This document shows positions 23,188 to 59,525 of a DNA stretch of 64,000 nucleotides, in pieces. The notes beneath the pieces were generated by a model. The model did not search any database. It saw only the letters and a list, made by a program, of their open reading frames with translations, and was not told the origin of the DNA. The stretch's first letter is position 1; each line of letters starts with the position of its first letter. The DNA is from an uncultured virus (IMG/VR IMGVR_UViG_3300011871_000042) (Duplodnaviria > Heunggongvirae > Uroviricota > Caudoviricetes), in the IMG/VR virus record IMGVR_UViG_3300011871_000042; one strand, given 5' to 3'. A program made the translations under genes and the position numbers.

Positions 23188-24072
23188 TTAACAACAATCC
23201 CAATTGAAATAAACTTTAGAAAAATCCCTTTCTTTTAGTTTACTCAACGAAATTCTCCAGTTAGCAACACCACAATCTCCCCACATCATATGTAGTTCGT
23301 CTTCGCTATCAAGCTGTAAAAGTAAAACCAAATCATTAGGAACATCCTTTTTACCTACATAATATAAAGGATCTGTTTGAGTGAAATAAGCATATCCTCC
23401 AACTTTAGAGCCAGCGTTATTAGCTTCTTCAACTTCATAATAAAGATCTTCATCATCCAAATTAAAACCTTGATTAGATGCTTTAAGGACTGCATGATTA
23501 TAAAGATCTTGTGTGCCTAATAGTTCTTCATGTTGTTTAAAGTTAACTTTAACAGATTTATCAAATGGCATATCATCATGGGTAGTATTAATATATATAA
23601 TATTTTCTGGAAGAAAATGTTCTACAGAAATATCCTCATGATAAACAACAAGAGTGCTTTCTTCTGTTTCAGGATATCCCCACATATCATCATCAAAAGC
23701 AAAGAAAAACTGAATAATCCCTTTTTGGGGGAAATCAGGAATTGCTTTATCAAATTGAATGCCGTCTTTTATAGCTTCTTCAATATTTAACTGAAAAATA
23801 AGTTTGGCTGTTTTACCATTTAATGTAGGATATTCTTTACCTTTAGGCCAATAGGGAACACCACCTATTTTTGATGAGAAAACATCTTTAAATTCATCAT
23901 ATGTGTCAGAAGATTTACCTATTTTAAAAAACGTCTTTAAAGTTGGTTGAAGTAATGAAACAATCGCNNNNNNNNNNNNNNNNNNNNNNNNNNNNNNNNN
24001 NNNNNNNNNNNNNNNNNNNNNNNNNNNNNNNNNNNNNNNNNNNNNNNTGTTTATCCATAAGGAACCTCTCAT
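23188..24072 (-). CDS. YwqG/DUF1963 family protein (5' end in an N gap)
   Basis: SKIGGVPYWP, FQLN, PQKGIIQFF, KVGGYAYFTQ.DP, LLQLDS, MWGDCG, WDC. Confidence 0.85.
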   Translation of the reverse strand: MRGSLWINXXXXXXXXXXXXXXXXXXXXXXXXXXXAIVSLLQPTLKTFFKIGKSSDTYDEFKDVFSSKIGGVPYWPKGKEYPTLNGKTAKLIFQLNIEEAIKDGIQFDKAIPDFPQKGIIQFFFAFDDDMWGYPETEESTLVVYHEDISVEHFLPENIIYINTTHDDMPFDKSVKVNFKQHEELLGTQDLYNHAVLKASNQGFNLDDEDLYYEVEEANNAGSKVGGYAYFTQTDPLYYVGKKDVPNDLVLLLQLDSEDELHMMWGDCGVANWRISLSKLKERDFSKVYFNWDCC

Positions 24073-25201: not shown

Positions 25202-26005
25202 TTAATGACAATCGAAGCTATAAAAAATGTTGTTAAAATCCAATTTTTTCAGATCTTCTATATCTATACGCCAATTGGCAACACCACAATCCCCCCAACA
25301 CATATCTTCTAAATCACTGTCAATCTGAAAAAGTAAAACTAAAGGATAAAGTTCATCAGGATATTTATCTATAAACTGATTATATTCATTCCATAAGGGA
25401 TCTTCTTGAGTAAAATAAGCATATCCACCTAATTTAGTTCCAGAGGTATAAGATTCAGGAATTTCGTCATTTTCCCACTGAATAATTTCTAATAGAGATT
25501 CATCTTTAAGTTCTTTTATATGCTTAGCTAAAAATCCTTGATAAAAAGAATCACAACAACCAATTAATTCTTTGGATTCATTCTTTAATGTAATTCTAAA
25601 GGATTCTTCATATCCAACATATTCATCATTAAGAGCTGTTTTTATTTGTTCATCTGTCAAGAAATGTTCTTGTTCTGTATTAGGATGATAAACAACTAAA
25701 GTATCTTCCCAGCATTCATCATGTTCAACCAAAAAGAATTGTAATATTCCTGTTGTTGGATAATAAGGGGAAATATTTTTTAGATTTACTTTTTTACTTA
25801 AATCATCAAGATTAAGTTGAGTAATCATTTTATAATTATTACCCTCAAACATAGGATATTTCTTATCTTTGGGCCAGTAAGGTATTCCACCTATTTTTGA
25901 AACCGTTATATCTTTATAAATATCATAAGGTGCTTCATCTAATATAAAATAATAAGCAGATCTTTCACTTGGTTTTAATTTATATTTTAGAGTTTTTATA
26001 TCCAT
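25202..26005 (-). CDS. YwqG/DUF1963 family protein
   Basis: SKIGGIPYWP, GILQFF, KLGGYAYFTQEDP, WGDCG. Confidence 0.85.
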   Translation of the reverse strand: MDIKTLKYKLKPSERSAYYFILDEAPYDIYKDITVSKIGGIPYWPKDKKYPMFEGNNYKMITQLNLDDLSKKVNLKNISPYYPTTGILQFFLVEHDECWEDTLVVYHPNTEQEHFLTDEQIKTALNDEYVGYEESFRITLKNESKELIGCCDSFYQGFLAKHIKELKDESLLEIIQWENDEIPESYTSGTKLGGYAYFTQEDPLWNEYNQFIDKYPDELYPLVLLFQIDSDLEDMCWGDCGVANWRIDIEDLKKLDFNNIFYSFDCH

Positions 26006-26111: not shown

Positions 26112-26654
26112 TTACATTTTAAGTTTATACTTATTTTCGAAACAACTATCTAAAACAGCCTGATAAGCTTTTCTCCATTTATGATGTTTTTCCCTCACAT
26201 TATTTTTATTAATAAATACTCTATCTGTGCTTTCATGAGATATATTGAAGTCAAGTATTTCAAATTGAGTTACCTTATAAAATAACTCTATGCCTTTTTC
26301 AGGATATCCATTTTCCATAGCAAGTGGAGCATTGGAGTTATCGACTAATATACCACCTATAACTTCATAATTTAAAGGAATAATAGAAGCTTCCTCTCTT
26401 GCCTCTCTAATAAGAGCTTGTTCTGGAGTTTCATCTTTCTCAATATGTCCTCCAATAATATCAATACCTCTATGATTAATAGTAAATAAAACATCATCAT
26501 TCAAAATAGGAAAGCAATGCGATGTTATTATAAAAGAATGAGGAAAAGATAAAACTTCTTCTTTATTCAAGAAATAAAGATCTACTTCACCATATTTAAA
26601 TTGTGTTTTTTCTGTAAAAATCATTTTATAATCCTTTTTTATAAAATTAGCCAC
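26112..26654 (-). CDS. NUDIX hydrolase
   Basis: GGHIEKDETPEQALIREAREEA Nudix box. Confidence 0.85.
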   Translation of the reverse strand: MANFIKKDYKMIFTEKTQFKYGEVDLYFLNKEEVLSFPHSFIITSHCFPILNDDVLFTINHRGIDIIGGHIEKDETPEQALIREAREEASIIPLNYEVIGGILVDNSNAPLAMENGYPEKGIELFYKVTQFEILDFNISHESTDRVFINKNNVREKHHKWRKAYQAVLDSCFENKYKLKM

Positions 26655-27846
26655 ATTGGGTTCCGGCTGTTATATTTTCAAAATTTAGTATTTTTAAATC
26701 GTCTTCATTTATATAAAAACAAAAAGCTCCAGAGTCTCCCCAATACATACCAGTATTTTCTGAGCACATTGTTTGTAATAAAACTCTATCATTACTACCT
26801 AGTTCTTGAACAGGTATTTCATAAGCTAATAAAGAATGCATGGATGTATAATCAAGTGAAATATGGGAATATGTAGCCATATGTTGTAAATCTGAAACAT
26901 CAGTTAATAATTCCAACTCTTCTGCTGTAAGATTAAATTGTTCCAAAATTTTCTCTTCTTTATAAAGAGGATATGAATCAGCATAATCTATATCAATAGC
27001 TACTTCATTTAATTTAAAATAATAATTGTTTTTTCTTTTAAGTTCTGACTTTTCAACATCAAGATAGTAAACTTGATTTGTTCCTTTTTCATCTATTTTA
27101 TCAAGGAAATAAATATAATCATCATAATCTAGATGTGCAACAGCACTAAAAAAATAAAGAAATCCTGTATTTGGTAATAAATTGTCTGACATGTTAGGAT
27201 CTATTTCTGATAAATCTATTTGAGCCAAAAATGTTAATGGTTTATTATCACATGTAGGCCATAAAAAATCTTTTGGTAAATCGGGTTGTCCTCCTAATTT
27301 TGAAGAACCTTTAGTTATTTTTTTATTAATATTCTCAATCAACATAACAGACTTTTTCTTTGTCTTTTCAAAAATATATCTATATTTATCAGCTTGTTTA
27401 TATTCAATAGCCCAATCTAAGATATCTTCTTTACTTAGTTTTTCATTAAATACTTTTTTAAAAAAATCGTAATGATATTGTTTTTTGTAATTGTTATATA
27501 CATTATCATATGATTTTTTTATCAAATAAAATATGAAGTTTTCATTATTCTTATTTATTTTATAAATGGGGATTTCATACCAATTATATTCATCAAGATC
27601 TTCTCCCCATGATCGTTTTTTAGTGTCATAAATTAAATTAGGATAATCTTGTTTATCTTTTTTGTATATTCGTAACAAAATAACATCTTCATAAAACATA
27701 ATAAAATCAGGAATCCCCCAATTAAATATTCTATAAGATAAACAACTTTTAAATACATGTTTTCCTTTTTTTAAACCTCTATATATATTAATTGTAGAAA
27801 AAGGGAGTGAAGCACTATATTCTATAAATTTTTGGCATTTATTCAT
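26647..27846 (-). CDS. YwqG/DUF1963 domain protein with an extra N-terminal domain
   Basis: SKLGGQPDLP..WP..PLTFLAQIDL, LPNTGFLYFF, WGDSG. Confidence 0.8.
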   Translation of the reverse strand: MNKCQKFIEYSASLPFSTINIYRGLKKGKHVFKSCLSYRIFNWGIPDFIMFYEDVILLRIYKKDKQDYPNLIYDTKKRSWGEDLDEYNWYEIPIYKINKNNENFIFYLIKKSYDNVYNNYKKQYHYDFFKKVFNEKLSKEDILDWAIEYKQADKYRYIFEKTKKKSVMLIENINKKITKGSSKLGGQPDLPKDFLWPTCDNKPLTFLAQIDLSEIDPNMSDNLLPNTGFLYFFSAVAHLDYDDYIYFLDKIDEKGTNQVYYLDVEKSELKRKNNYYFKLNEVAIDIDYADSYPLYKEEKILEQFNLTAEELELLTDVSDLQHMATYSHISLDYTSMHSLLAYEIPVQELGSNDRVLLQTMCSENTGMYWGDSGAFCFYINEDDLKILNFENITAGTQCG

Positions 27847-33881: not shown

Positions 33882-35588
33882 TTAATCTAAAAGTTTAGAA
33901 ACTGTATTTTCTGAGATAAATGTCTTCCTCGCAATAGGAATATTTCTTCCCAATCCAAATGTATTGCTTCTTACGCGAATAATAGGGCAAGATTGTTTTC
34001 TTTTAAATTCTGCGAGTTCAACTTTCTTAAGGATTTCCATTCCCTTTTCATGGCTAAATTTATTTTCTCTCAAAAACTCTTTACGTTTAAGAATACTTTC
34101 TTCATCCATAGATTTACCTTCAAGATAAAGCTGTAAAAAAGCATCAAGAATAGGGTAATCAGGTAAAGAATCTTGATCAGTCTGTCCCGGAAATAGTTCC
34201 GCTGATGGTGCTTTTTCAATAACAGAACGAGGCATTTTACCAAGATCAGCATAATGTTCCAGCATTCTGTAAACTTCTGTTTTATAGAGATCTCCAATAG
34301 GGTTTAAACCACCATTAGTATCGCCATAAAGCGTACAATAACCAACAGAGACTTCACTCTTATTACCTGTAGACAATACAAGAGAGTTATCCTGATTAGA
34401 CCATGCCATAATAGATGTTCCACGGATACGAGCTTGTAGGTTTTCCATAGTTAAACGGTTAGGCTCCTGACCAAAAGCAGTCTTAAATGCCTCAACAGCA
34501 GCTTGGAAATCATCTTTACTAGGCCGCTCCTAAAGTTTGACACCCAACATTTCAGCAAGTGCCTGACTGTCTGTAACACTACCAGCAGAAGAAATCTGAC
34601 TTGGCATCGTTACTGCTGTAATATTATCAGCCCCTAAAGCATCAACAGCTAATGCTAATACTAAAGAACTATCCGCACCACCAGACAATGCTAAACTTGC
34701 TCTTTTAATACCATTCTTATAGAAAAAATCCCTAATTCCCATAACCAACTGATGTTTTACAAATCCTATCCACTGCTCATTGTCAGTATCAATACTTGCA
34801 TCTTTATCAAATACAGATTCTCCAAGCCATTTCGTATCAAATGATTGTGTATCGACAGTTAAAACACCTTCTGAAAAGAAAGGAGCTTGTTTAATCTCAC
34901 CATTAGGTAAAGCAATATAGCTACCACCATCAAAAACAATAGTATCATTACCACCAACTTGATTCACAGAAATGTAAGGAATTTGTTTTTCTTTAGCAAT
35001 ACCCCCAAAGATCTTTTTCCTTAAATGATTTTTACGCAAACTTGACGGAGATGCGTTAATAGATAAATAAAAATCGATACCTTCACTTGCCAGATCATTA
35101 ACAGGGTTTACTTTATATGAACCATCAGTATTCCAACCATCCTCACAAATAAGAACACCAACATGATGCTCATTCAAAGAAATACTTTCAGATTTTTCTC
35201 CCGCTTCGAAATAACGATTTTCATCAAATACATCATAAGTCGGAAGAAGGCGTTTTACTGCAACAATTTTTACATTTTTACCATCTAGTAAGACAGCCTG
35301 ATTTTCATGAGACTTACCGTATAAGCGAGTATTAATTCCAACACGTCCTACAATAGCTTTTTGATTTCTTGAAGCTAACCATGAATTTAATTCATTAATA
35401 ACACTATTTTGTTCATCTAAAAAATCCTGACGATGAATCATGTCATTGATTTGATATCCACTGAAAGTTAACTCTGGACCAACCAAAAGATGATCGCATG
35501 GTACATTCAAAGCAAGTTCCTTGAATTTTTCCAGATTCCCTTTAAAATCACCAACAGTAGAATTTAATTGAATAAGAGCTATTTTCAT
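33882..35588 (-). CDS. nadE: Glutamine-dependent NAD+ synthetase, interrupted by one in-frame TAG at 34530-34532
   Basis: Nitrilase domain (PEL, KRLLP.YDVFDE, ICED) + LSGGADS, ENLQARIRG, TGNKSE, PSAEL; the two listed ORFs are in the same frame (..GVKL*ERPSKDDF..LTMEN). Confidence 0.9.
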
Positions 35589-45175: not shown

Positions 45176-46713
45176 TCAATTATTAATGAATATTAAATCA
45201 TCAATTGATGTTGTGATAAAAGGAATAAAGGGATTAAACAATATCAAATACCTCTGTAATATCATTAAGCCCTCAATAGCAATGTCTTTGTTATTATTCC
45301 ATAATTCCTTTTTATTTTGTTCAATCCAATAGTCACAAAAGTAAGATCTGAAATGATTCTGAAGCTGCCTTGAACAAGTAGAAAATTTATCCTTTGAAAG
45401 CAAATCATACCATGTTTCTGTGATTTTGTCCATTTCTGATGAAATGAAATCCCTCTCTTTTATATCCTTTTTATTATCTATAAAATAGGTATGCATATTA
45501 ATAAATCTTGATGCTTGCCATATTTTATTAATAAATTTCTTTTCTTCATTTAGCCAATCAAGATTAAATTTTATATCTAATCCGGGTTCTGTATGATTAC
45601 ATAATGTCCATCTTAGGCAATCAGCACCATGAGACTCTATACAAAGTAAAGGATCTATTCCGTTCCCCAAAGATTTAGACATTTTCTTATTATTTTTATC
45701 TCTTATTATTCCATGTAAATAAATTTCATTAAAGGGATATTTACCTGTGATTAATTTACACATCATTAACATTCTTGCACACCAAAAGAAAATAATATCA
45801 TCCGCTGTTTCAAGCCATGAGCAAGGATAAAATTGTTCAAAATCGGTTGTTTTGTGAGGCCATCCAAGAATTGCTGCAGGCCATATAGAAGATAAAAACC
45901 ATGTATCAAAAGTAAAGTTTTCTTTTATCCAGTTGGGATCACTGTGATCTATATCGCTAAAACGAGCTGTACGCTCTTCTAATGAGTTATAAGCTATAGG
46001 GATAGGCAAACCCCAAGGTATCTGTCTTGATATGCACCAAGGCTCTATATTTTTAAGAAAACTGATCAGTGTATTTTTACCACTTTCAGGAGTAATTTTA
46101 ATTATACCAGATTCAAGATCTTTTAAAAGCTCTTGAGCTAAATTAGTCATATCTAAATAATACTGATTATTTTCTCTATACAACATTCCATTTTCATAAC
46201 AAATATCAAAAGCTTTCAGAGAAGATTTTTTATATTCTTCATCAAGTGTAAAACGTTCTTTATTCCAGTTACAGGAAGCTCCCATACTAAAAATCTGAGT
46301 TTTTATTCTGCGTTGATAAAAATCTTTCCAAATATTGGCTTCTTCAAAATAAGCAGAAAGATCGTTAGGATCTAAATTTTTCTCATTCATTGAAAGTAAT
46401 ATTTTTTCATGAGTTGCTAAACCTGCATGATCCGTTCCCGGAATCCACAATGAATTATTCCCAATAATAGTATTAAATCTGGTTTTAATATCTTGTAATG
46501 TTAAGAACAATGAGTGTCCTAAATGTAATTGACCTGTAATATTAGGTGGTGGCATTGGTAGGAACCAATTTTGTTTTTTATGATTAGGTAAAGACAGTTT
46601 GAAGTGATTTAAAAGATCTTGCTGAGGATTATTTCCCCATTTTGAAATTAATCTAGATTCCTCAGATTGGAAATCAAAGAATTTATTTAGTTCATTACGT
46701 TTAACTGTGTCAT
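45176..46713 (-). CDS. valS: Minimal valyl-tRNA synthetase (no CP1 editing domain or C-terminal coiled coil); start is out of frame
   Basis: PPPNITGQLHLGH, PGTDHAG.AT, WCISRQ, DTWF.S, FFWCARM, KMSKSLGN; the frame is open about 53 codons upstream of 46555 with FDFQSEE..SKW but has no in-frame ATG/GTG/TTG. Confidence 0.85.
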
Positions 46714-46957
46714 AGCATCCTCCTATTTATTTTTACTTGACGAAAAAATAATAAAATATTTCAAAGTAATTTTCAATTGTTTTTTACGTATTTTTTGAAA
46801 AAATAATCTTCCAAGAAATCCAAAATTTGTACCTATTTTTTAAAACCAAAATTTTACCTTAGAAGAAAAACTGTAATTAAATTATAATTAAGAATTAATT
46901 AAGGGGGAAAAAAAGGCTATTTTTTCTTTAATATTCAATAAGATAAAAATACGAACA

Positions 46958-47139
46958 TATCCACTCACTACGGTAAAATAGCTACTCACTACGGTATTTT
47001 AGCCACCGCCTACGGTAATTTTAGCTACTCACTACGGTAAAATAGCTACTGCCTACGGTAATATTAAGTGTGAAATATTGCTTTTTTTAGCCACTCACTA
47101 CGGTAGAAACGGATAAAAATATAGCCACTCACTACGGTA
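46958..47139 (+). repeat. Seven 18-bp iterons (consensus TAGCYACTCACTACGGTA), putative replication origin
   Basis: Copies start at 46958, 46979, 47000, 47022, 47043, 47088, 47122; 21-22 bp period for the first five; AT-rich tract upstream; rep gene downstream. Confidence 0.9.
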
Positions 47140-47224
47140 AAAGGAGAAATAAAAAAGTTGTTAAAAATAATATTTTGACGTATGATAAAAACTTTAAATA
47201 TATAATATCGTAATAGGGTTAAAA

Positions 47225-48271
47225 ATGGAAAAAGAATTAGAGTTAGAAAAAGAAAGTGTCATTAATAAGAATAAAATAAAAATAATAAAACCCGCCATAA
47301 TAATAGCAGCAGATAATATAGAAAGTAAGGTAGAAAATGAAGAATTGACACCTTGGCCTATTGTAAGGAATTTCGGCATTCCTAATAAAATGTTAAGAAG
47401 TGCCTTGTTTGGAATTCAAAGAGAAAGGTCGGGAGTAGTTCCAGTTGATGATATGATTATTCCATGTCCTGAAGGAACTAAAATAAAGTATTCTGGACCA
47501 GTATTAAATCAGGATGATTCTTTGGTTTGGCAAATGATTGTTAGAGCTATTAGACAGAATAAAGCGCCTATGGGAGGATTAATTCAGCTATCTTCTCAAG
47601 AGATGTTAAAAGTATTAGATAGAACAGATGGTGGCCCTAATTTTTTATGGTTAAAATCATGTTTAGATAGATTAACAAAAGCTCATATTGTTATAGATAC
47701 ACCTAATGACGAAATAAGAAGTCATTTATTAGTAGGATATAGAGTAGATAAAAAGACAAAAAAAATAAACGTAGGAATAAGTGCTCTCCTTTATCCATTA
47801 TTTATTGGAGATCTTACTGATATTGATGTTATTAGAAAAACAAAGTTAAAAAGTCAAATATCAAGATGGCTTCATGATTTTTATTCTTCTCATTCAGAAC
47901 CTGTTCCTTATACTATTCAGAGGATTCAGGAACTATCAAGATCTAACAAACAAACAAGTAAGTTTAGAAAAATGATAGAAGGTGCAATAGAAGAGTTAAA
48001 ATATTGTGATCCTCCTCTTTTCACAGAAGATAGCTATTTAGATAAAAAAACAGATCAGCTTATTATCTATAAAGCAACTAATAGCCCCGGAGAAGCTCCT
48101 AAAAAAGTTTATGAGGCTAAATCAATAAAAACCATAGAAAGTAAATCAGATAAGAATTCAAGAGATGTAGAGTTAATAATGCATAGATTTAATATGACAG
48201 AAGAAGAAGTCGTATCACTAAATAATAGAGATTTTAAAAATTTACTTCAAAGCTTAAAACTAGCTTTATAA
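47225..48271 (+). CDS. trfA: TrfA-family plasmid replication initiator
   Basis: PN.MLRSALFG, IKYSG..LNQDD.LVW, R.DGG.N...L..CLDRL, WLH.FYSSH..P.P; next to iterons. Confidence 0.8.
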   Translation: MEKELELEKESVINKNKIKIIKPAIIIAADNIESKVENEELTPWPIVRNFGIPNKMLRSALFGIQRERSGVVPVDDMIIPCPEGTKIKYSGPVLNQDDSLVWQMIVRAIRQNKAPMGGLIQLSSQEMLKVLDRTDGGPNFLWLKSCLDRLTKAHIVIDTPNDEIRSHLLVGYRVDKKTKKINVGISALLYPLFIGDLTDIDVIRKTKLKSQISRWLHDFYSSHSEPVPYTIQRIQELSRSNKQTSKFRKMIEGAIEELKYCDPPLFTEDSYLDKKTDQLIIYKATNSPGEAPKKVYEAKSIKTIESKSDKNSRDVELIMHRFNMTEEEVVSLNNRDFKNLLQSLKLAL

Positions 48272-49880: not shown

Positions 49881-52046
49881 TTATTTTGAAATTTCAACAT
49901 CATTTAATGTGGCAGAAACAATAACCTCATTTGTAATCCCTTCAGGTTTTATTGTTAAAGTATTATCATCTAATCCATCCATATCACTAAACCAGCAATG
50001 TCCAACAATAATACAAAACTTAATTTTTGCCAACTCATTATTTAAACTTCTTGTCTTTTTAACTGCTGAATCAGCTTCGCTATCAAGCCAAGTAATAAGA
50101 AGTGCTTGAGGATCGGCAGCATTTTTATAAATATCAGATTGTTTAAATTCTTGTACTCTTTTTATTGCTCTTGCCATCACTTCTTCTCTTAATGTTAATG
50201 ATTTTTTCTCATTAAGTTTCTTTTCAACATCATCTACTTTAGGGAGACTTGATAAACCTTTAACACTAATATTCATTTCTTTAGCTAAATAAACATCACC
50301 AGAAGATACAGATGTTGTTGATGGACTAAAACCACTATAATCTGTAAGTCCTACGCTCTTAAGCCATTCTGCAGCCTCTTTTCCATAAATAACAGTATAT
50401 CCTTGGCTTGTTTTTTCAACAAGTTGAGCTTTATAGAACTTAAATACTTTTTGATCACCTTTTAAATATTCCAATTCAAAAGCTTTTGCAAAAGTCTCTT
50501 TAGCTGAAACTTTCTTAACCATATTTCTATTAATAATAGGAAGTTTAGAAACATCTAAGCTATATATTTTTTTCTCTTGATAAACTTCATTTTCCAACAA
50601 TCCATGAGATTTTAGGGTATTAAAAGTTTCTTCTGAAAGAGAAACAGGCAATTTTCTACTATGAACAATACCATCTTTAATTATAGTGTAGTTTCTATAT
50701 ATGAATGATGGGAATTTTTCTGGTAAATTTTTAAATGGTTTGTCTAAAGGTAAAGAAACAAAACCTTCAATTTTTACGTTAACAGAAATATTTGGTCTTT
50801 TTTCATTATAAACAAGACTTCTCATAGGAACGCCCGGATTATCATCATATGCTGTAAATTTAAAACTATCATCTTTTGCTACAGTTTCTTTCCCAATGCT
50901 TTGATAGTTAAATGACTTATCAAATGGATAGAAATAGTTTCCTTCATTGCTAATAAGTAAATTTATCGCATCAAGAACAGTATAAGCATCTTCATTTGGG
51001 ATAGCATTAGGATCTCTACCTTCTAAGAACCTTTCTTTTTCATTAAATGCCAATAAAAGACATTCATTGTAAAAGTCATTATAATCTTGTTTACTAAAAC
51101 AGTTTACAAAATGGTTAACAAGTTTTACATCAGCCAAAGATTTTAGGGTATCGAATATTTCATCAGTTTTTAATCTTTGTGCAAGAGTAGCAAGACCAAC
51201 ATATGTTAATACATCGACAGGATCTTCTACACCATCTACACCATCATTAAAATAAGCAATGAATTCTGTAGTGTCAGGAAGTAATACTTCATTATTTTCA
51301 TCTACAGAAAATGTTTGAACGTTATGTTCACTATCAAAAGTAAAAGCATATCCAAGCTTAGGAGTATGATCTAATTTAACTTGAATTTTCTTTATTGCAA
51401 AGCCGGGACGAAGAAGTTGGTTCTCGAAACTTGCTTCATAATCGACAAAGTGTTCATTAAATACAAGTTGTCCTCCAACGGTTTCAGCCATTTGAGAAAG
51501 AAGTTTTCTATTACAGTTCCATCCATATTCAATAAATGTAGCACTTGCTAATTCTTTCTGTAATGGAGCAACGACATTTAATATTTCCTGTGTTTTCCAT
51601 TCATTATCATATCCATCTGTCATAAAGAATAAAGAAAATACACCAGTAGAGTCATTTTGCTTAATTCTTTTTATTACTTGAGCGGCCTCTTCAAGAGGTT
51701 GCTTAAATCCTGTAAGACCAACAGGTTGTAAAAACTTATCGATTGCGGCATTTAATTTTGTAAGATCCGTTACTTTTTTAACGGGAACAGCTTCTTGCAA
51801 TACACCAAATTGGTTTTTACCACTAAACCAAATTAAGGTAATAGTATCTTTTTCTTTTACTAATGTAGGAAGCTTATTTTTTAATTGCTTTCTTAATTCA
51901 GGAAGATCGTGATACATAGATCCAGAGCAATCAATAACAGCTATATGATGAGTTGGGACGTTTTTAGGTTTTGGAGCATCTTCTTTTTTTATTGATTGTA
52001 TTGATAATCCTAGATTTTTAGATAATCTTATATTTTTACTTTGCAT
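49881..52046 (-). CDS. von Willebrand factor A domain protein
   Basis: MIDAS motif DCSGSM, T, FMTDG. Confidence 0.85.
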   Translation of the reverse strand: MQSKNIRLSKNLGLSIQSIKKEDAPKPKNVPTHHIAVIDCSGSMYHDLPELRKQLKNKLPTLVKEKDTITLIWFSGKNQFGVLQEAVPVKKVTDLTKLNAAIDKFLQPVGLTGFKQPLEEAAQVIKRIKQNDSTGVFSLFFMTDGYDNEWKTQEILNVVAPLQKELASATFIEYGWNCNRKLLSQMAETVGGQLVFNEHFVDYEASFENQLLRPGFAIKKIQVKLDHTPKLGYAFTFDSEHNVQTFSVDENNEVLLPDTTEFIAYFNDGVDGVEDPVDVLTYVGLATLAQRLKTDEIFDTLKSLADVKLVNHFVNCFSKQDYNDFYNECLLLAFNEKERFLEGRDPNAIPNEDAYTVLDAINLLISNEGNYFYPFDKSFNYQSIGKETVAKDDSFKFTAYDDNPGVPMRSLVYNEKRPNISVNVKIEGFVSLPLDKPFKNLPEKFPSFIYRNYTIIKDGIVHSRKLPVSLSEETFNTLKSHGLLENEVYQEKKIYSLDVSKLPIINRNMVKKVSAKETFAKAFELEYLKGDQKVFKFYKAQLVEKTSQGYTVIYGKEAAEWLKSVGLTDYSGFSPSTTSVSSGDVYLAKEMNISVKGLSSLPKVDDVEKKLNEKKSLTLREEVMARAIKRVQEFKQSDIYKNAADPQALLITWLDSEADSAVKKTRSLNNELAKIKFCIIVGHCWFSDMDGLDDNTLTIKPEGITNEVIVSATLNDVEISK

Positions 52047-57187: not shown

Positions 57188-58222
57188 ATGTATAAAGATT
57201 TTTTAGAAAAATTAGAAGATGAAGAAAATTTAAAAGATCGAGAGCTATGGATTGAATTAGCTTATATCAATAATCCCTTAGTTGAGAAGAAAATAACTCA
57301 AAAAGGATATAGTTTTCTTAGTCCTATATTAAAGAAGTCTGATAATTTAGAAGAAGTAATTACCCCACTTCTTCTTTTGTGCTATGATAAAGAAATACCT
57401 AATAAAAATGAAATCCTTTCCAGATGGCTTGCTGAAACATTAATACAAGAAAAATTCACTAAAAGTAAAAATACAATAAATTATAGAAATCATCAACAAG
57501 AAAAGTTATTTATGTTTTTTATTGAACAAAATAATATAGATATGATAGAAAAAATAATTTATTGGAGTAAGGAAATGCCTTATCCTCATAAAGTTATAAG
57601 TTATGAAGATGTAAAAAAATATATATTTAAAAATCTTTCAATAGAAGGATTAAAAAATTTTAGTTCTTCATGGAGTGACAATGTTTGGCTAACTAAATGG
57701 AAATTTGAAAAAAATTTATGGGATTACGAGCCTCATGACTTTGAGGCCAATCCTGAAAGTTTCTGGCCTATAGAAAGGCAATCATTTAATTTAGATTGGA
57801 TGAAGGCCGTGTTAGAAGCAGGTTGTCCAACAAACATGTTAATGCAAGGTTTTTTTGATGAAAAAGAAATAGAAACAATAATGTTAAGAATATTAAAGCT
57901 TTCTTTTTATTTCCATAATCATGAATATCATAATAAAAATAACGAAAATATAAAAAAGTTATGGATACGTGATGAAAAATATTTAATGAAAATGTTAAGC
58001 TTATTTGTTAGTCATGGAGGAAAAATAGAAGGCAATTGGAATGGTATCGCTTGGTGGGAAGAATGGAGAAATTTAAGGAAAAATATAAAGGATTGGACTA
58101 GTTGGAATGAACAAACATTATCATACATTGATAGTTTTGCTCAACAACATGAAATTAATAAAAAAATGAGTATAAGTATGGCTCATAAAAAAGTAGAAAA
58201 AAATCTTAAAGAAAGAATATAA
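57188..58222 (+). CDS. Hypothetical Trp-rich protein with basic tail
   Basis: 344-aa ORF ending KKVEKNLKERI. Confidence 0.65.
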   Translation: MYKDFLEKLEDEENLKDRELWIELAYINNPLVEKKITQKGYSFLSPILKKSDNLEEVITPLLLLCYDKEIPNKNEILSRWLAETLIQEKFTKSKNTINYRNHQQEKLFMFFIEQNNIDMIEKIIYWSKEMPYPHKVISYEDVKKYIFKNLSIEGLKNFSSSWSDNVWLTKWKFEKNLWDYEPHDFEANPESFWPIERQSFNLDWMKAVLEAGCPTNMLMQGFFDEKEIETIMLRILKLSFYFHNHEYHNKNNENIKKLWIRDEKYLMKMLSLFVSHGGKIEGNWNGIAWWEEWRNLRKNIKDWTSWNEQTLSYIDSFAQQHEINKKMSISMAHKKVEKNLKERI

Positions 58223-58315
58223 AAAATGCTTGACTTGAATGTTGATTTTCGTATATGATGGTTTCGTTGAGCAAATCAACATACTTTAAACAATAAAACA
58301 AATAGGAAAATAAAT

Positions 58316-58417
58316 ATGAAACACTAGACTTTAAATGTAAGAGCACCTCCACCTTGGATTATTAATTTATTCATGCAGTTCTATTATATAAAATTTAATA
58401 ATCAATCAAAAAGGTGA
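58316..58417 (+). promoter_or_regulatory. Leader peptide MKH(TAG)TLNVRAPPPW.. with an anti-SD hairpin
   Basis: SD AGGA, ATG 58316, TAG 58325-27, in-frame RAPP 58340-51, TGA 58415-17; CACCTT 58350-55 complementary to AAGGTG 58411-16; promoter TTGACT-18-TATGAT at 58230-59. Confidence 0.7.
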
Positions 58418-58860
58418 AAATTATGACTACTTTAAATATCGAAAACAAATCTTTTATTCTTTCTAAAGAAAAAGCATTAGAAGCTAAATCTATCTGGAAA
58501 GATCTATCAAAAAATAAAAAAGCAACATTATCTCATCATGTATTTTATTTCTTATTAATATCACATGATCCAGAATTAGTGTTTAAAAAAGCTTTTTCTC
58601 CATTAGTAAATTCCAATAAAATTCAAAATGTTGGTGGTGATGTCTACTTTGCTGTCAAACAAGAATTAGGAAGTTTATCTTCTAAAAATTTAGAATTTAA
58701 ATATATTGAGCCTTGGATTTCCATCTTATTGAATGAAGATGAATATAAAATAAAAGGTCATTGGTCTAAAATTGTTGAAACAGAATCTGAGCTTATTAAT
58801 GATATTCGTAAAAAAGCTCAACTTGTTTTGGATTTTTTTAATGGTAAAAAAGAGGTTTAA
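58414..58860 (+). CDS. Hypothetical protein (start GTG 58414 or ATG 58423)
   Basis: SD AAGGTG; co-oriented with the downstream PTH gene. Confidence 0.7.
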   Translation: MKIMTTLNIENKSFILSKEKALEAKSIWKDLSKNKKATLSHHVFYFLLISHDPELVFKKAFSPLVNSNKIQNVGGDVYFAVKQELGSLSSKNLEFKYIEPWISILLNEDEYKIKGHWSKIVETESELINDIRKKAQLVLDFFNGKKEV

Positions 58861-58863
58861 TAA

Positions 58864-59238
58864 ATGTATTTAAAATATGATGGCAAGGCTCCTTTTGAAA
58901 AAGATGAAGCTAAATATGTATATGTATTAATCAGAACGGATTTATCATTAGCTCAGCAAGGCGTACAGGCTGTTCATGCTGGTATGGCTGCTATACATGA
59001 ATTTGGTGGTTTAACGGATGATACTCGTTTAGCAATGCTTTCTGTTAATAGTGAAAAGGAACTTGAACTTTGGGCAGAAAGACTTGAAATGAATGGAATT
59101 AACTTTAAAATATTTTGGGAGCCTGATAATAATACTGGATGGTCAGCATTAGCAACAGCACCAATTAGTAGACAAGAAGGGAAAGTGTTAAAAAAGTTAA
59201 TGAGATGGAATCCTGAAAGAGATCTGATGGCAGCATAG
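58864..59238 (+). CDS. Peptidyl-tRNA hydrolase, PTH2-like
   Basis: YVLIRTDL..AQQGVQAVHAG, L.V.SE.EL, F.EPD...SALATAP. Confidence 0.75.
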   Translation: MYLKYDGKAPFEKDEAKYVYVLIRTDLSLAQQGVQAVHAGMAAIHEFGGLTDDTRLAMLSVNSEKELELWAERLEMNGINFKIFWEPDNNTGWSALATAPISRQEGKVLKKLMRWNPERDLMAA

Positions 59239-59273
59239 TAAAAATATAATAAAAAGGAAGCGCAGCTTCCTTT

Positions 59274-59525
59274 TTATTTGATTAATGAAAGTTTTGGTTT
59301 TTTATAATAAGGTTTATCTAGCATAGGTTTCTCAAATCTTTCTAATTGAGGAAAAGTTTTCTCTAATGCTTCATATCTACTACTTGCTAATACATCTTTT
59401 GTTTTTATTCCTACTTTATTAAGATTGATCAATAAATTTAATGTAACATCATTACTTTCGATAGAAATAAAATCATTAAGTTCTGTATCAAACCATACTT
59501 TATATAAAACTTGATTATCTTTCAT
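59274..59525 (-). CDS. Hypothetical protein
   Basis: SD AAGGA; ends KKPKLSLIK. Confidence 0.6.
   Translation of the reverse strand: MKDNQVLYKVWFDTELNDFISIESNDVTLNLLINLNKVGIKTKDVLASSRYEALEKTFPQLERFEKPMLDKPYYKKPKLSLIK

What the first reader, a model, noticed from the sequence alone, without database searches (positions are those of the whole stretch)
58230..59238. Stop-codon-readthrough sensor: MKH-TAG-RAPP arrest leader gating a peptidyl-tRNA hydrolase operon
Seen: a sigma70-like promoter, an SD, then ATG AAA CAC TAG. Past the TAG the same frame reads TLNV-RAPPP-WIINLF.. and stops at TGA 58415-17, on top of the next gene's SD/GTG. The Pro codons contain CACCTT (58350-55), complementary to that SD (AAGGTG 58411-16). 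GATTATTAA (58357-65) pairs with TTAATAATC (58395-403) and TTTAT (58366-70) with ATAAA (58388-92), forming a long SD-sequestering hairpin. Known: RAPP/RAGP is the stalling motif of ApdA, ApdP and SecM arrest peptides, and PTH2-like enzymes recycle peptidyl-tRNA. Inference: normal termination at codon 4 leaves the hairpin closed. When termination fails (RF1 limitation, suppression, misreading), the ribosome reaches RAPP, stalls over the anti-SD and switches on the unknown ORF and PTH. I know of no described attenuator with this logic.
Basis: partly seen in the sequence, partly recalled or inferred. Interest (0 to 1): 0.9.

Follow-up and report, generated by a model that had tools for sequence, protein, structure and literature searches.

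The report
Amber-gated RAPP stall leader, unproven
A tiny translated leader in front of a two-gene operon has a UAG stop followed in frame by a strong ribosome-stalling motif that overlaps the mask of the next gene's ribosome-binding site, so it may switch the operon on when UAG is read through, but only one sequence could be examined.

Summary
The sequence is as described. An RBS-preceded ATG AAA CAC TAG (58316-58327) is followed in frame by TLNV-RAPPP and 20 more open codons. These end at a TGA inside the SD (AAGGTG 58411-16) of the next gene. Contigs of 4 runs from 4 studies show no difference there, so the TAG is not an error of one assembly.

Corrections:
- The next gene starts at ATG 58423 (145 aa), not GTG 58414.
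- The 124-aa protein has a PTH2 fold but fails Pfam's cut-off, and Gln sits where a solved hydrolase has Lys.
- The hairpin is no stronger than shuffles (z -0.19). SD masking ranks 13th of 62 genes.

RAPP occurs once in all six frames of the window (0.05 expected). My simulation still leaves roughly 0.3-5 chance constellations over a 250,000-window scan.

No DNA of close relatives could be reached, so conservation is untested. Earlier notes of this scan describe the same syntax in phages with UAG-reading tRNAs.

Best reading (about 0.35): a UAG-read-through-gated RAPP stall leader that unmasks the SD. Rivals:
- an RNA-only SD mask,
- chance,
- a decayed RAPP leader.

The parts
58230..58259 (+). 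Sigma-70-like promoter, TTGACT, 18 nt, TATGAT
   Evidence: 10 of 12 matches. The scan as a whole found no more sites than shuffles give (12 found, 12.0 expected).
58239..58282 (.). Perfect 10-bp inverted repeat ATGTTGATTT / AAATCAACAT (58239-48 and 58273-82) flanking the -10 box. A possible operator.
   Evidence: I2, 100% complementary. 10-bp inverted repeats occur about 2.2 per kb in the window, so it is only suggestive.
58304..58327 (+). RBS (AGGA 58304-07) and mini-ORF ATG AAA CAC TAG (58316-58327, MKH-stop)
   Evidence: The RBS resembles those of real genes in the window. The TAG is unchanged in contigs of 4 runs.
58328..58417 (+). Same frame behind the TAG: 29 open codons TLNV-RAPPP-W...KR, then TGA 58415-17 inside the next SD. 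RAPPP codons lie at 58340-58354.
   Evidence: This is the only RA[PG]P in six frames of the window. Comparable open frames occur in 1073 of 7040 (15%) 29-codon windows of the other intergenic DNA.
58344..58355 (+). Two overlapping anti-SD copies, CACCU 58344-48 and CACCUU 58350-55, which are also the Pro codons
   Evidence: AGGUG 58412-16 is paired with probability about 1.0, 0.83 to the first copy and 0.17 to the second.
58357..58403 (+). A-U-rich inner stem, 58357-70 with 58388-403
   Evidence: I1, 12 nt, 92% complementary.
58411..58416 (+). SD AAGGTG of the 145-aa gene, 6 nt before ATG 58423
58423..58860 (+). Gene 1: 145-aa helical protein of unknown family
   Evidence: 9 homologues of 145-146 aa, 66-99% identical. 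No Pfam hit at E 0.01 or better (at E up to 10 only Cornichon, E 0.12), no NCBIfam or PHROGs hit, and in PADLOC only LmuC at E 0.011. Model pLDDT is 58 and it has no PDB match.
58864..59238 (+). Gene 2: 124-aa protein with a PTH2 fold, ending ...MAA TAG TAA
   Evidence: pLDDT 87.7. The 11 top-ranked Foldseek rows are archaeal Pth2-type chains and human Bit1, TM 0.58-0.73. The Pfam PTH2 hit is below cut-off. 16 homologues. Distant homologues occur in jumbo phages.
59248..59278 (.). Terminator-like GC-cored hairpin closing the two-gene unit
   Evidence: 14 pairs, listed on the - strand, palindromic with A/T runs on both sides.

Best explanation
The leader is a UAG-gated ribosome-stalling switch for a two-gene operon (an unknown 145-aa protein plus a PTH2-fold protein).

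- Off state: ribosomes load on a normal RBS, translate Met-Lys-His and terminate at UAG. The SD of the 145-aa gene stays paired with CACCU.
- On state: if the UAG is decoded instead, by a UAG-reading tRNA or because termination is slow, the ribosome runs five codons further and meets Arg-Ala-Pro-Pro. It arrests with the Pro codons in its P and A sites.
- Consequence: those Pro codons are the anti-SD, so the arrested ribosome holds the SD open and other ribosomes can start on the operon. A long-lived stall would amplify rare read-through events.

What is shown: the sequence syntax, the reality of the TAG, that TAG otherwise acts as a stop here, the predicted pairing, and the PTH2 fold.

What is inferred: that read-through happens, that this short nascent chain stalls, that the stall unmasks the SD, and what supplies the read-through.
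For: 1. Syntax. RBS, ATG, 2 codons, TAG, 4 codons, RAPPP, then an open frame to a TGA inside the next SD.
2. Rarity of the motif. RAPP occurs once in six frames of 64 kb against 0.05 expected, and it lies in a sense-strand 5' leader.
3. Chance estimate. A first-order Markov model of this window's intergenic DNA gives 2e-6 RAPP-coding 12-mers per nt. It gives 0.138 for 21 open codons behind the motif. It gives 0.0073 for an in-frame ATG within 12 codons with exactly one stop that is TAG, or 0.0004 with an SD as well.
4. The RBS. TAGGAAAATAAAT-ATG matches the RBS style of real genes here.
5. The TAG is real. Contigs of runs X2, X3, X16 and X17 (4 studies) show zero differences across the leader.
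6. TAG acts as a stop. It ends 5 of 63 ORFs, and only one real gene has an internal TAG.
7. Pairing. The SD core pairs with probability about 1.0 to the Pro-codon anti-SD.
8. Literature. RAPP supports robust, EF-P-refractory arrest in several contexts and regulates downstream genes of diverse function. Arrest occurs with the two Pro codons in the P and A sites (PMC12992588 abstract and sections 8, 10, 13, 14).
9. Leads not checked by me. Notes of this scan report the same amber-then-RAPP syntax, conserved in 19 to about 80 relatives, in phages with UAG-reading tRNAs.
10. Link to phages. The PTH2-fold family has distant homologues in 35 phage records; all 20 listed are genomes of 309-735 kb. 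One is a 735-kb phage whose copy carries two in-frame TAGs.
Against: - Conservation is untested. No DNA of the nine related clusters could be fetched (look-up of encoding contigs closed).
- No UAG-reading tRNA is known here. There are 0 tRNA genes in the window and no genome is held.
- The RNA structure is unremarkable. The fold has z -0.19, SD masking ranks 13th of 62 genes, and 9-bp inverted repeats occur about 3 per kb.
- The layout is atypical. RAPPP lies 20 codons from the frame's stop with only 8 residues before it and no localisation signal. Described RAPP peptides carry the motif near the C-terminus and mostly have signal or membrane segments.
- Stalling is not predictable. The residues just before RAPP modulate or abolish it (PMC10951233 passages).
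- Look-elsewhere effect. With one search's figures and about 9,000 nt of leaders per window, I estimate 1e-6 to 2e-5 chance constellations per window. That is 0.3-5 over 250,000 windows.
- The Pro codons resemble an anti-SD anyway, so pairing is not independent evidence.
Confidence: 0.35

Rival explanations
1. RNA-only control. The 155-nt 5' UTR simply masks the SD with a CACCU anti-SD and an A-U-rich stem, acting for example as a thermosensor or the target of a factor. The mini-ORF and the RAPP reading of the anti-SD are incidental.
For: - The SD core is paired with probability about 1.0.
- CACCTCC occurs only once per strand in the whole window, so the G+C-rich island is itself unusual and could be selected as an anti-SD.
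- The leader is long: a 200-nt gap against a median of 78 nt.
Against: - The fold is no more stable than shuffles.
- 12 of 62 genes show stronger predicted SD masking.
- No Rfam family matches, even at E up to 1.
- An anti-SD does not explain the Arg and Ala codons in front, the 29 open codons, or the in-frame RBS and ATG.
Confidence: 0.25
2. Chance. An ordinary A+T-rich leader in which a short ATG...TAG and a RAPP-coding 12-mer happen to share a frame, with no regulatory role for either.
For: - Only one sequence could be examined.
- From I estimate 0.3-5 such constellations by chance over a scan of 250,000 windows, and more if other stops or stall motifs would also have been flagged.
- The hairpin statistics are unremarkable.
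Against: - The joint probability per window is about 1e-6 to 2e-5 (plus my multiplication).
- The same syntax is reported as conserved in phage families (unchecked notes).
Confidence: 0.25
3. Decayed leader. Relatives carry an intact 33-codon RAPP arrest uORF and this clone has a nonsense mutation at codon 4.
For: - The frame is otherwise open from ATG to the SD.
- The same assembly has a second in-frame TAG, in nadE, where all 14 aligned relatives have Tyr or Phe and a 98% identical relative is intact.
Against: - An unconditional cytosolic RAPP uORF with no way of release would trap ribosomes permanently and is not a described design.
- The TAG is identical in contigs of 4 runs from 4 studies, though these may all be one clone.
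- No intact leader ORF turned up among 1.84 billion representative proteins. The only hit was an unrelated 621-aa protein, which is weak evidence because such short ORFs are rarely called.
Confidence: 0.1

Closest known systems
RAPP/RGPP-type regulatory arrest peptides (ApdA, ApdP, ApcA, CruR, Streptomyces lividans uORFs; SecM with RAGP)
   Same: - An Arg-Ala-Pro-Pro motif encoded upstream of a co-directional gene.
- Arrest with the Pro codons in the P and A sites.
- The arrested ribosome is expected to prevent an RNA helix that blocks downstream initiation.

Sources: PMC12992588 sections 13-14 and PMC10951233 introduction passage.
   Different: - Here a UAG stop stands between the start codon and the motif.
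- Only 8 residues precede the motif and there is no signal or membrane segment.
- The motif lies 20 codons from the frame's stop.
- The downstream genes are not protein-localisation or metal genes.
Amber-gated RAPP leaders of phages noted earlier in this scan (e1-5878212, e1-5846441, e1-5965075, e1-5911500 and others)
   Same: A tiny leader, a UAG after 2-3 codons, then RAPP, and a masked RBS of the next gene.
   Different: - Those lie in phages that carry their own UAG-reading tRNAs and are said to be conserved in 19 to about 80 loci.
- This one lies among bacterial housekeeping genes (RecA, ParC/ParE, RpoD, ClpS), with no such tRNA known and no relatives examined.
- Those notes are unchecked AI notes.
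prfB (RF2) programmed frameshift
   Same: An early in-frame stop codon whose decoding efficiency sets the expression of what lies behind it (recalled knowledge; no call).
   Different: - prfB uses a +1 frameshift within one gene and regulates the release factor itself.
- Here no frameshift route exists: the +1 frame hits TAA at once.
- The output is a separate operon controlled through SD unmasking.
Synthetic amber-gated leader peptide switch (Liu, Qi, Yanofsky, Arkin 2011, as described in review PMC6412442 section 6)
   Same: A TAG placed in a regulatory leader peptide makes downstream expression depend on amber suppression (passages read).
   Different: That switch is engineered, acts on transcription through the tna/trp leaders, and uses an orthogonal tRNA. 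This leader is natural and would act on translation initiation.
PepNL of E. coli
   Same: A natural tiny arrest peptide whose behaviour depends on stop-codon read-through (PMC11890864 abstract passage).
   Different: The logic is the inverse. PepNL stalls at its stop codon and read-through relieves the stall. Here read-through would cause the stall.

Membership tests
RAPP-type regulatory arrest peptide | RAPP, RGPP or RAGP core motif | tested here: met
   RAPPP at 58340-58354. It is the only RA[PG]P in six frames of the window.
RAPP-type regulatory arrest peptide | Uninterrupted ORF from a start codon to the motif | tested here: not met
   TAG at codon 4. No ATG, GTG or TTG lies in frame between the TAG and RAPP.
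RAPP-type regulatory arrest peptide | N-terminal signal or membrane segment that lets a cellular activity release the arrest | tested here: not met
   Only MKH-x-TLNV precedes the motif. Described members mostly carry such segments.
RAPP-type regulatory arrest peptide | Motif near the C-terminus of the ORF, with a co-directional downstream gene | tested here: inconclusive
   A downstream gene is present 5 nt after the frame's stop, but the motif lies 20 codons before that stop.
RAPP-type regulatory arrest peptide | Experimentally shown arrest (peptidyl-tRNA accumulation, toeprint) | not testable with these tools
   This needs in vitro translation.
RAPP-type regulatory arrest peptide | Conservation of the uORF and motif among relatives | not testable with these tools
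   No DNA of relatives could be reached. The peptide search found no homologue.
PTH2 peptidyl-tRNA hydrolase (PF01981), for the 124-aa protein | Sequence match above Pfam's gathering score | tested here: not met
   E 0.024, 15.3 bits against a cut-off of 23. The family profile against PDB sequences gives E 0.047 to one peptidyl-tRNA hydrolase.
PTH2 peptidyl-tRNA hydrolase (PF01981), for the 124-aa protein | PTH2 fold | tested here: met
   Model pLDDT 87.7. The 11 top-ranked Foldseek rows are archaeal Pth2-type chains (3erj, five chains of 2zv3, 1wn2, 1xty, 1rlk; several deposited as structural-genomics or unknown-function entries) and human Bit1 (1q7s, two chains), with E 1e-5 to 2e-4 and TM 0.58-0.73.
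PTH2 peptidyl-tRNA hydrolase (PF01981), for the 124-aa protein | Conserved Lys of the GK motif before the Q..HA helix. That this Lys is catalytic is recalled, not taken from a call. | tested here: not met
   In the HMMER alignment the family's invariant Q31-Q32 align with K-K of the solved hydrolase 24bt_A. Activity is therefore uncertain.
Genome-wide TAG reassignment (code-15-like) | Frequent in-frame TAG inside conserved genes | tested here: not met
   Only nadE has an internal TAG among the real genes of the window. TAG ends 5 of 63 ORFs.

The most novel reading that the evidence does not exclude
A bacterial chromosome carries a sensor for foreign UAG-reading tRNAs. When a stop-codon-recoding phage expresses its suppressor tRNA, host ribosomes read through the leader's UAG and jam on RAPP. 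This switches on a tRNA-directed PTH2-fold effector and its partner, as a defence or as a captured phage timing module. The alternative signal is failing RF1 termination in the cell itself.
Probability: 0.08. Interest if true: 0.9.

Novelty: new variant of a known kind. Interest (0 to 1): 0.5.

Why it matters
If real, this would be a natural switch that converts rare stop-codon read-through into strong gene activation by using the most robust known stalling motif as an amplifier. It would show that cells, and not only phages, monitor how UAG is decoded. It would also tie an uncharacterised PTH2-fold family, shared with jumbo phages, to that signal. The idea is directly testable with simple reporters. 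If it is chance, it is a useful warning that an anti-SD made of CCU/CCA codons reads as Pro-Pro in one frame out of three.

Tried and rejected
Searches for relatives' DNA
- No whole genome is held. L001 has no handle.
- Genome contigs: nothing for the 145-aa family. For the PTH2-fold family only two distant loci, L002 and L003.
- Metagenome contigs: only L001, which is identical to the window.
- Viral contigs: nothing for the 145-aa family and one 34% hit for the PTH2-fold family, L004.
- The 145-aa protein has no match in plasmids or phages. The PTH2-fold protein has none in plasmids.

Leader peptide
- Read with TAG=Q, it was too short for the search for homologous proteins.
- Against 1.84 billion representative proteins the only hit was an unrelated 621-aa protein.

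RAPP-class motifs near distant PTH2-fold homologues
- In the 900 nt upstream of the match in L002-L004, 0 of 3 have a plausible leader. The one RAGP, in L002, sits in a frame broken by stops.
- In the + strand of L005-L008, 0 of 4 have such a motif.
- The N-terminal domain fused to the homologue in phage XacN1 is not related to the 145-aa protein (hhalign probability 0.3%).

Function of the 145-aa protein
- Atlas, PADLOC, PHROGs, NCBIfam and Foldseek on a low-confidence model gave nothing usable.

Alternative routes to RAPP
- There is no in-frame start between the TAG and RAPP.
- The +1 frame holds an ATG TAA start-stop (58335-40) and no long frame, so frameshifting was rejected.

Other points
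- General TAG reassignment was rejected.
- A transcription terminator inside the leader was rejected, because no T run follows the stem.
- Contigs of RNA runs X16 and X17 cover the leader but begin upstream of the promoter. They are contigs and say nothing on transcript ends.
- The window is bacterial rather than phage. RecA is 77% identical to enterobacterial RecA found in the phage collection's contaminant records. ParC/ParE, RpoD, RecJ and ClpS are present.

Full report
**What is there**

One search shows the 200-nt gap between a 344-aa ORF (ending at 58222) and the next gene. It contains:
- a promoter-like TTGACT-18-TATGAT (58230-59);
- a perfect 10-bp inverted repeat around the -10 box (58239-48 and 58273-82);
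- AGGA (58304-07), followed 8 nt later by ATG AAA CAC TAG (58316-27).

The same frame continues ACT TTA AAT GTA AGA GCA CCT CCA CCT TGG and stays open for 29 codons. It ends at TGA 58415-17, which lies inside AAGGTG (58411-16).

All 9 homologues of the next protein are 145-146 aa and begin MTT/MNT. A 124-aa gene follows after 3 nt, and a terminator-like hairpin (59248-78) closes the unit.

**Is the TAG real, and is TAG a stop here?**

- Contigs of runs X2, X3, X16 and X17 (4 studies) cover the leader with zero differences. 19 of the 23 runs listed, from 10 studies, hold the stretch or a part of it. These may all be one clone, but the TAG is not an error of one assembly.
- Among 63 ORFs of 110 aa or more, stops are TAA 52, TGA 6 and TAG 5.
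- When only TAA and TGA are treated as stops, the single real gene with an internal TAG is nadE. TAG is therefore not generally a sense codon.
- The nadE case: the TAG (34530-32, minus strand) stands where all 14 aligned relatives have Tyr or Phe. A 98% identical relative is an intact 568 aa. Two further differences from that relative lie within 20 nt of the TAG. From the window's codons I infer that all three look like T>G changes, but the relative's DNA was not seen. I could not check reads there.

**How unusual is the arrangement?**

- RA[PG]P occurs once in all six frames of the 64 kb. Second-order Markov simulations gave 0.05 RAPP per window (0.05 of the 60 simulations held at least one) and 0.3 for the wider motif class.
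- The mini-ORF's RBS looks like those of real genes in the window.
- A first-order model of the window's intergenic DNA gives:
  - 2e-6 RAPP-coding 12-mers per nt;
  - 0.138 for 21 open codons behind the motif;
  - 0.0073 for an in-frame ATG within 12 codons with exactly one stop that is TAG;
  - 0.0004 if an SD-like word is also required.
- With about 9,000 nt of sense-strand leaders per window, my multiplication gives 1e-6 to 2e-5 per window. That is 0.3-5 such constellations by chance in a scan of 250,000 windows. Chance is unlikely for one window but cannot be dismissed for the scan as a whole.

**The RNA structure**

- In the fold of 58266-58442, AGGUG 58412-16 is paired with probability about 1.0. 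The share is 0.83 to CACCU 58344-48 and 0.17 to 58350-54.
- The fold of 58266-58440 is no more stable than shuffles (z -0.19).
- 12 of 62 genes in the window show stronger predicted SD masking.
- 9-bp inverted repeats are common here, about 3 per kb.
- No Rfam family matches.
- RAPP codons in an A+T-rich genome tend to spell CACCUCC anyway, so the pairing adds little independent evidence.

**The genes behind the leader**

- The 145-aa protein has no family, no confident model and no structural match.
- The 124-aa protein folds with pLDDT 87.7. Its model matches archaeal Pth2-type chains and human Bit1 with TM 0.58-0.73.
- The Pfam PTH2 hit is below cut-off. The family's invariant Gln-Gln aligns with Lys-Lys of a solved hydrolase. 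Hydrolase activity is therefore open.
- Its distant homologues in the phage collection occur in 35 records; all 20 listed are genomes of 309-735 kb. One is a 735-kb uncultured phage whose copy has two in-frame TAGs, at L005 2483-85 and 2585-87.
- The window itself is bacterial. RecA is 77% identical to enterobacterial RecA, and ParC/ParE, RpoD, RecJ and ClpS are present.

**Mechanism**

- Toeprinting of CruR places the arrest with the two Pro codons of RAPP in the P and A sites. RAPP arrest is robust and refractory to EF-P (PMC12992588 abstract and sections 8, 10, 14).
- Here that puts CCU 58346-48 in the P site.
- My inference from usual ribosome dimensions is that the footprint then covers both anti-SD copies and the foot of the inner stem. 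A ribosome terminating at the UAG would reach only to about 58337.
- The switch logic is therefore physically coherent. Its input would be UAG read-through.
- Against it, the residues just before RAPP can weaken or abolish stalling (PMC10951233 passages). Described members have long N-terminal parts with localisation signals and carry the motif near the C-terminus (PMC12992588 section 13).

**Context from this scan and from print**

- Notes of earlier agents describe amber-then-RAPP leaders in several phage groups with UAG-reading tRNAs, said to be conserved in 19, 22 and about 80 loci. I did not check them. They raise the prior that this syntax is a real device, and they suggest a UAG-reading tRNA as the input here.
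- Three full-text searches found no paper describing a natural amber-gated arrest leader.
- The nearest items were a synthetic TAG-in-leader switch (review PMC6412442, passages) and PepNL, where read-through relieves a stall (PMC11890864, passage).
- PMC7897499, PMC10987492 and bioRxiv 10.1101/2021.08.26.457843 were seen only as search listings with the start of the abstract.

**Verdict**

1. The true start is ATG 58423.
2. The upstream anti-SD copy is the preferred partner of the SD.
3. PTH2 membership rests on fold only.

It rests on one sequence, and conservation could not be tested because no DNA of the relatives could be reached. My odds are:
- 0.35 for a UAG-gated RAPP stall switch;
- 0.25 for an RNA-only SD mask;
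- 0.25 for chance;
- 0.10 for a decayed RAPP leader.

Noticed in passing
window 33882-35588 (- strand); TAG at 34530-34532: The glutamine-dependent NAD synthetase gene is split by a single in-frame TAG where all 14 aligned relatives have Tyr or Phe. A 98% identical relative is an intact 568 aa. Two more differences from that relative lie within 20 nt, one of them at a nearly invariant Ile. This is either a local error or mutation cluster, or a hint of UAG suppression in this strain.
   Followed up: partly
window 45176-47224 (- strand) and 47225-48271 (+): A 459-aa ORF matches only the middle of ValRS (profile positions 351-679 of 860). It is preceded by a 669-nt stretch full of stops, the longest gap in the window. 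Next to it lies a TrfA-like replication initiator gene. This may be a truncated synthetase gene and a plasmid-type origin region.
   Followed up: no
window 58239-58248 / 58273-58282: A perfect 10-bp inverted repeat brackets the -10 box of the operon's promoter-like site. It is a candidate operator, so transcription may also be regulated.
   Followed up: partly
window 58335-58340: An ATG TAA start-stop in the +1 frame lies 7 nt after the leader's TAG and just before the anti-SD. A re-initiating ribosome parked there would also touch the anti-SD. Its chance frequency was not worked out.
   Followed up: no
L005 (LR756501.1) 2477-2860: The PTH2-fold homologue of a 735-kb uncultured phage has two in-frame TAGs, at its codon 3 and about codon 37. 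That phage therefore reads TAG as sense.
   Followed up: partly
window 49881-52046 (- strand): A 721-aa protein with no Pfam hit matches phrog_2426 at E 2e-192. It is 36-37% identical to a vWA-domain protein of Serratia, Salmonella and Dickeya phages of about 150-160 kb.
   Followed up: partly
window 23188-24072, 25202-26005, 26647-27846 (- strand): Three DUF1963 paralogues lie within 5 kb.
   Followed up: no
window 58100-59300: The stretch is held at or near 100% of sampled words in runs of 10 studies labelled microbial mat, gut, chicken gut, wastewater, soil and others. That is an unusually wide spread for one clone.
   Followed up: no
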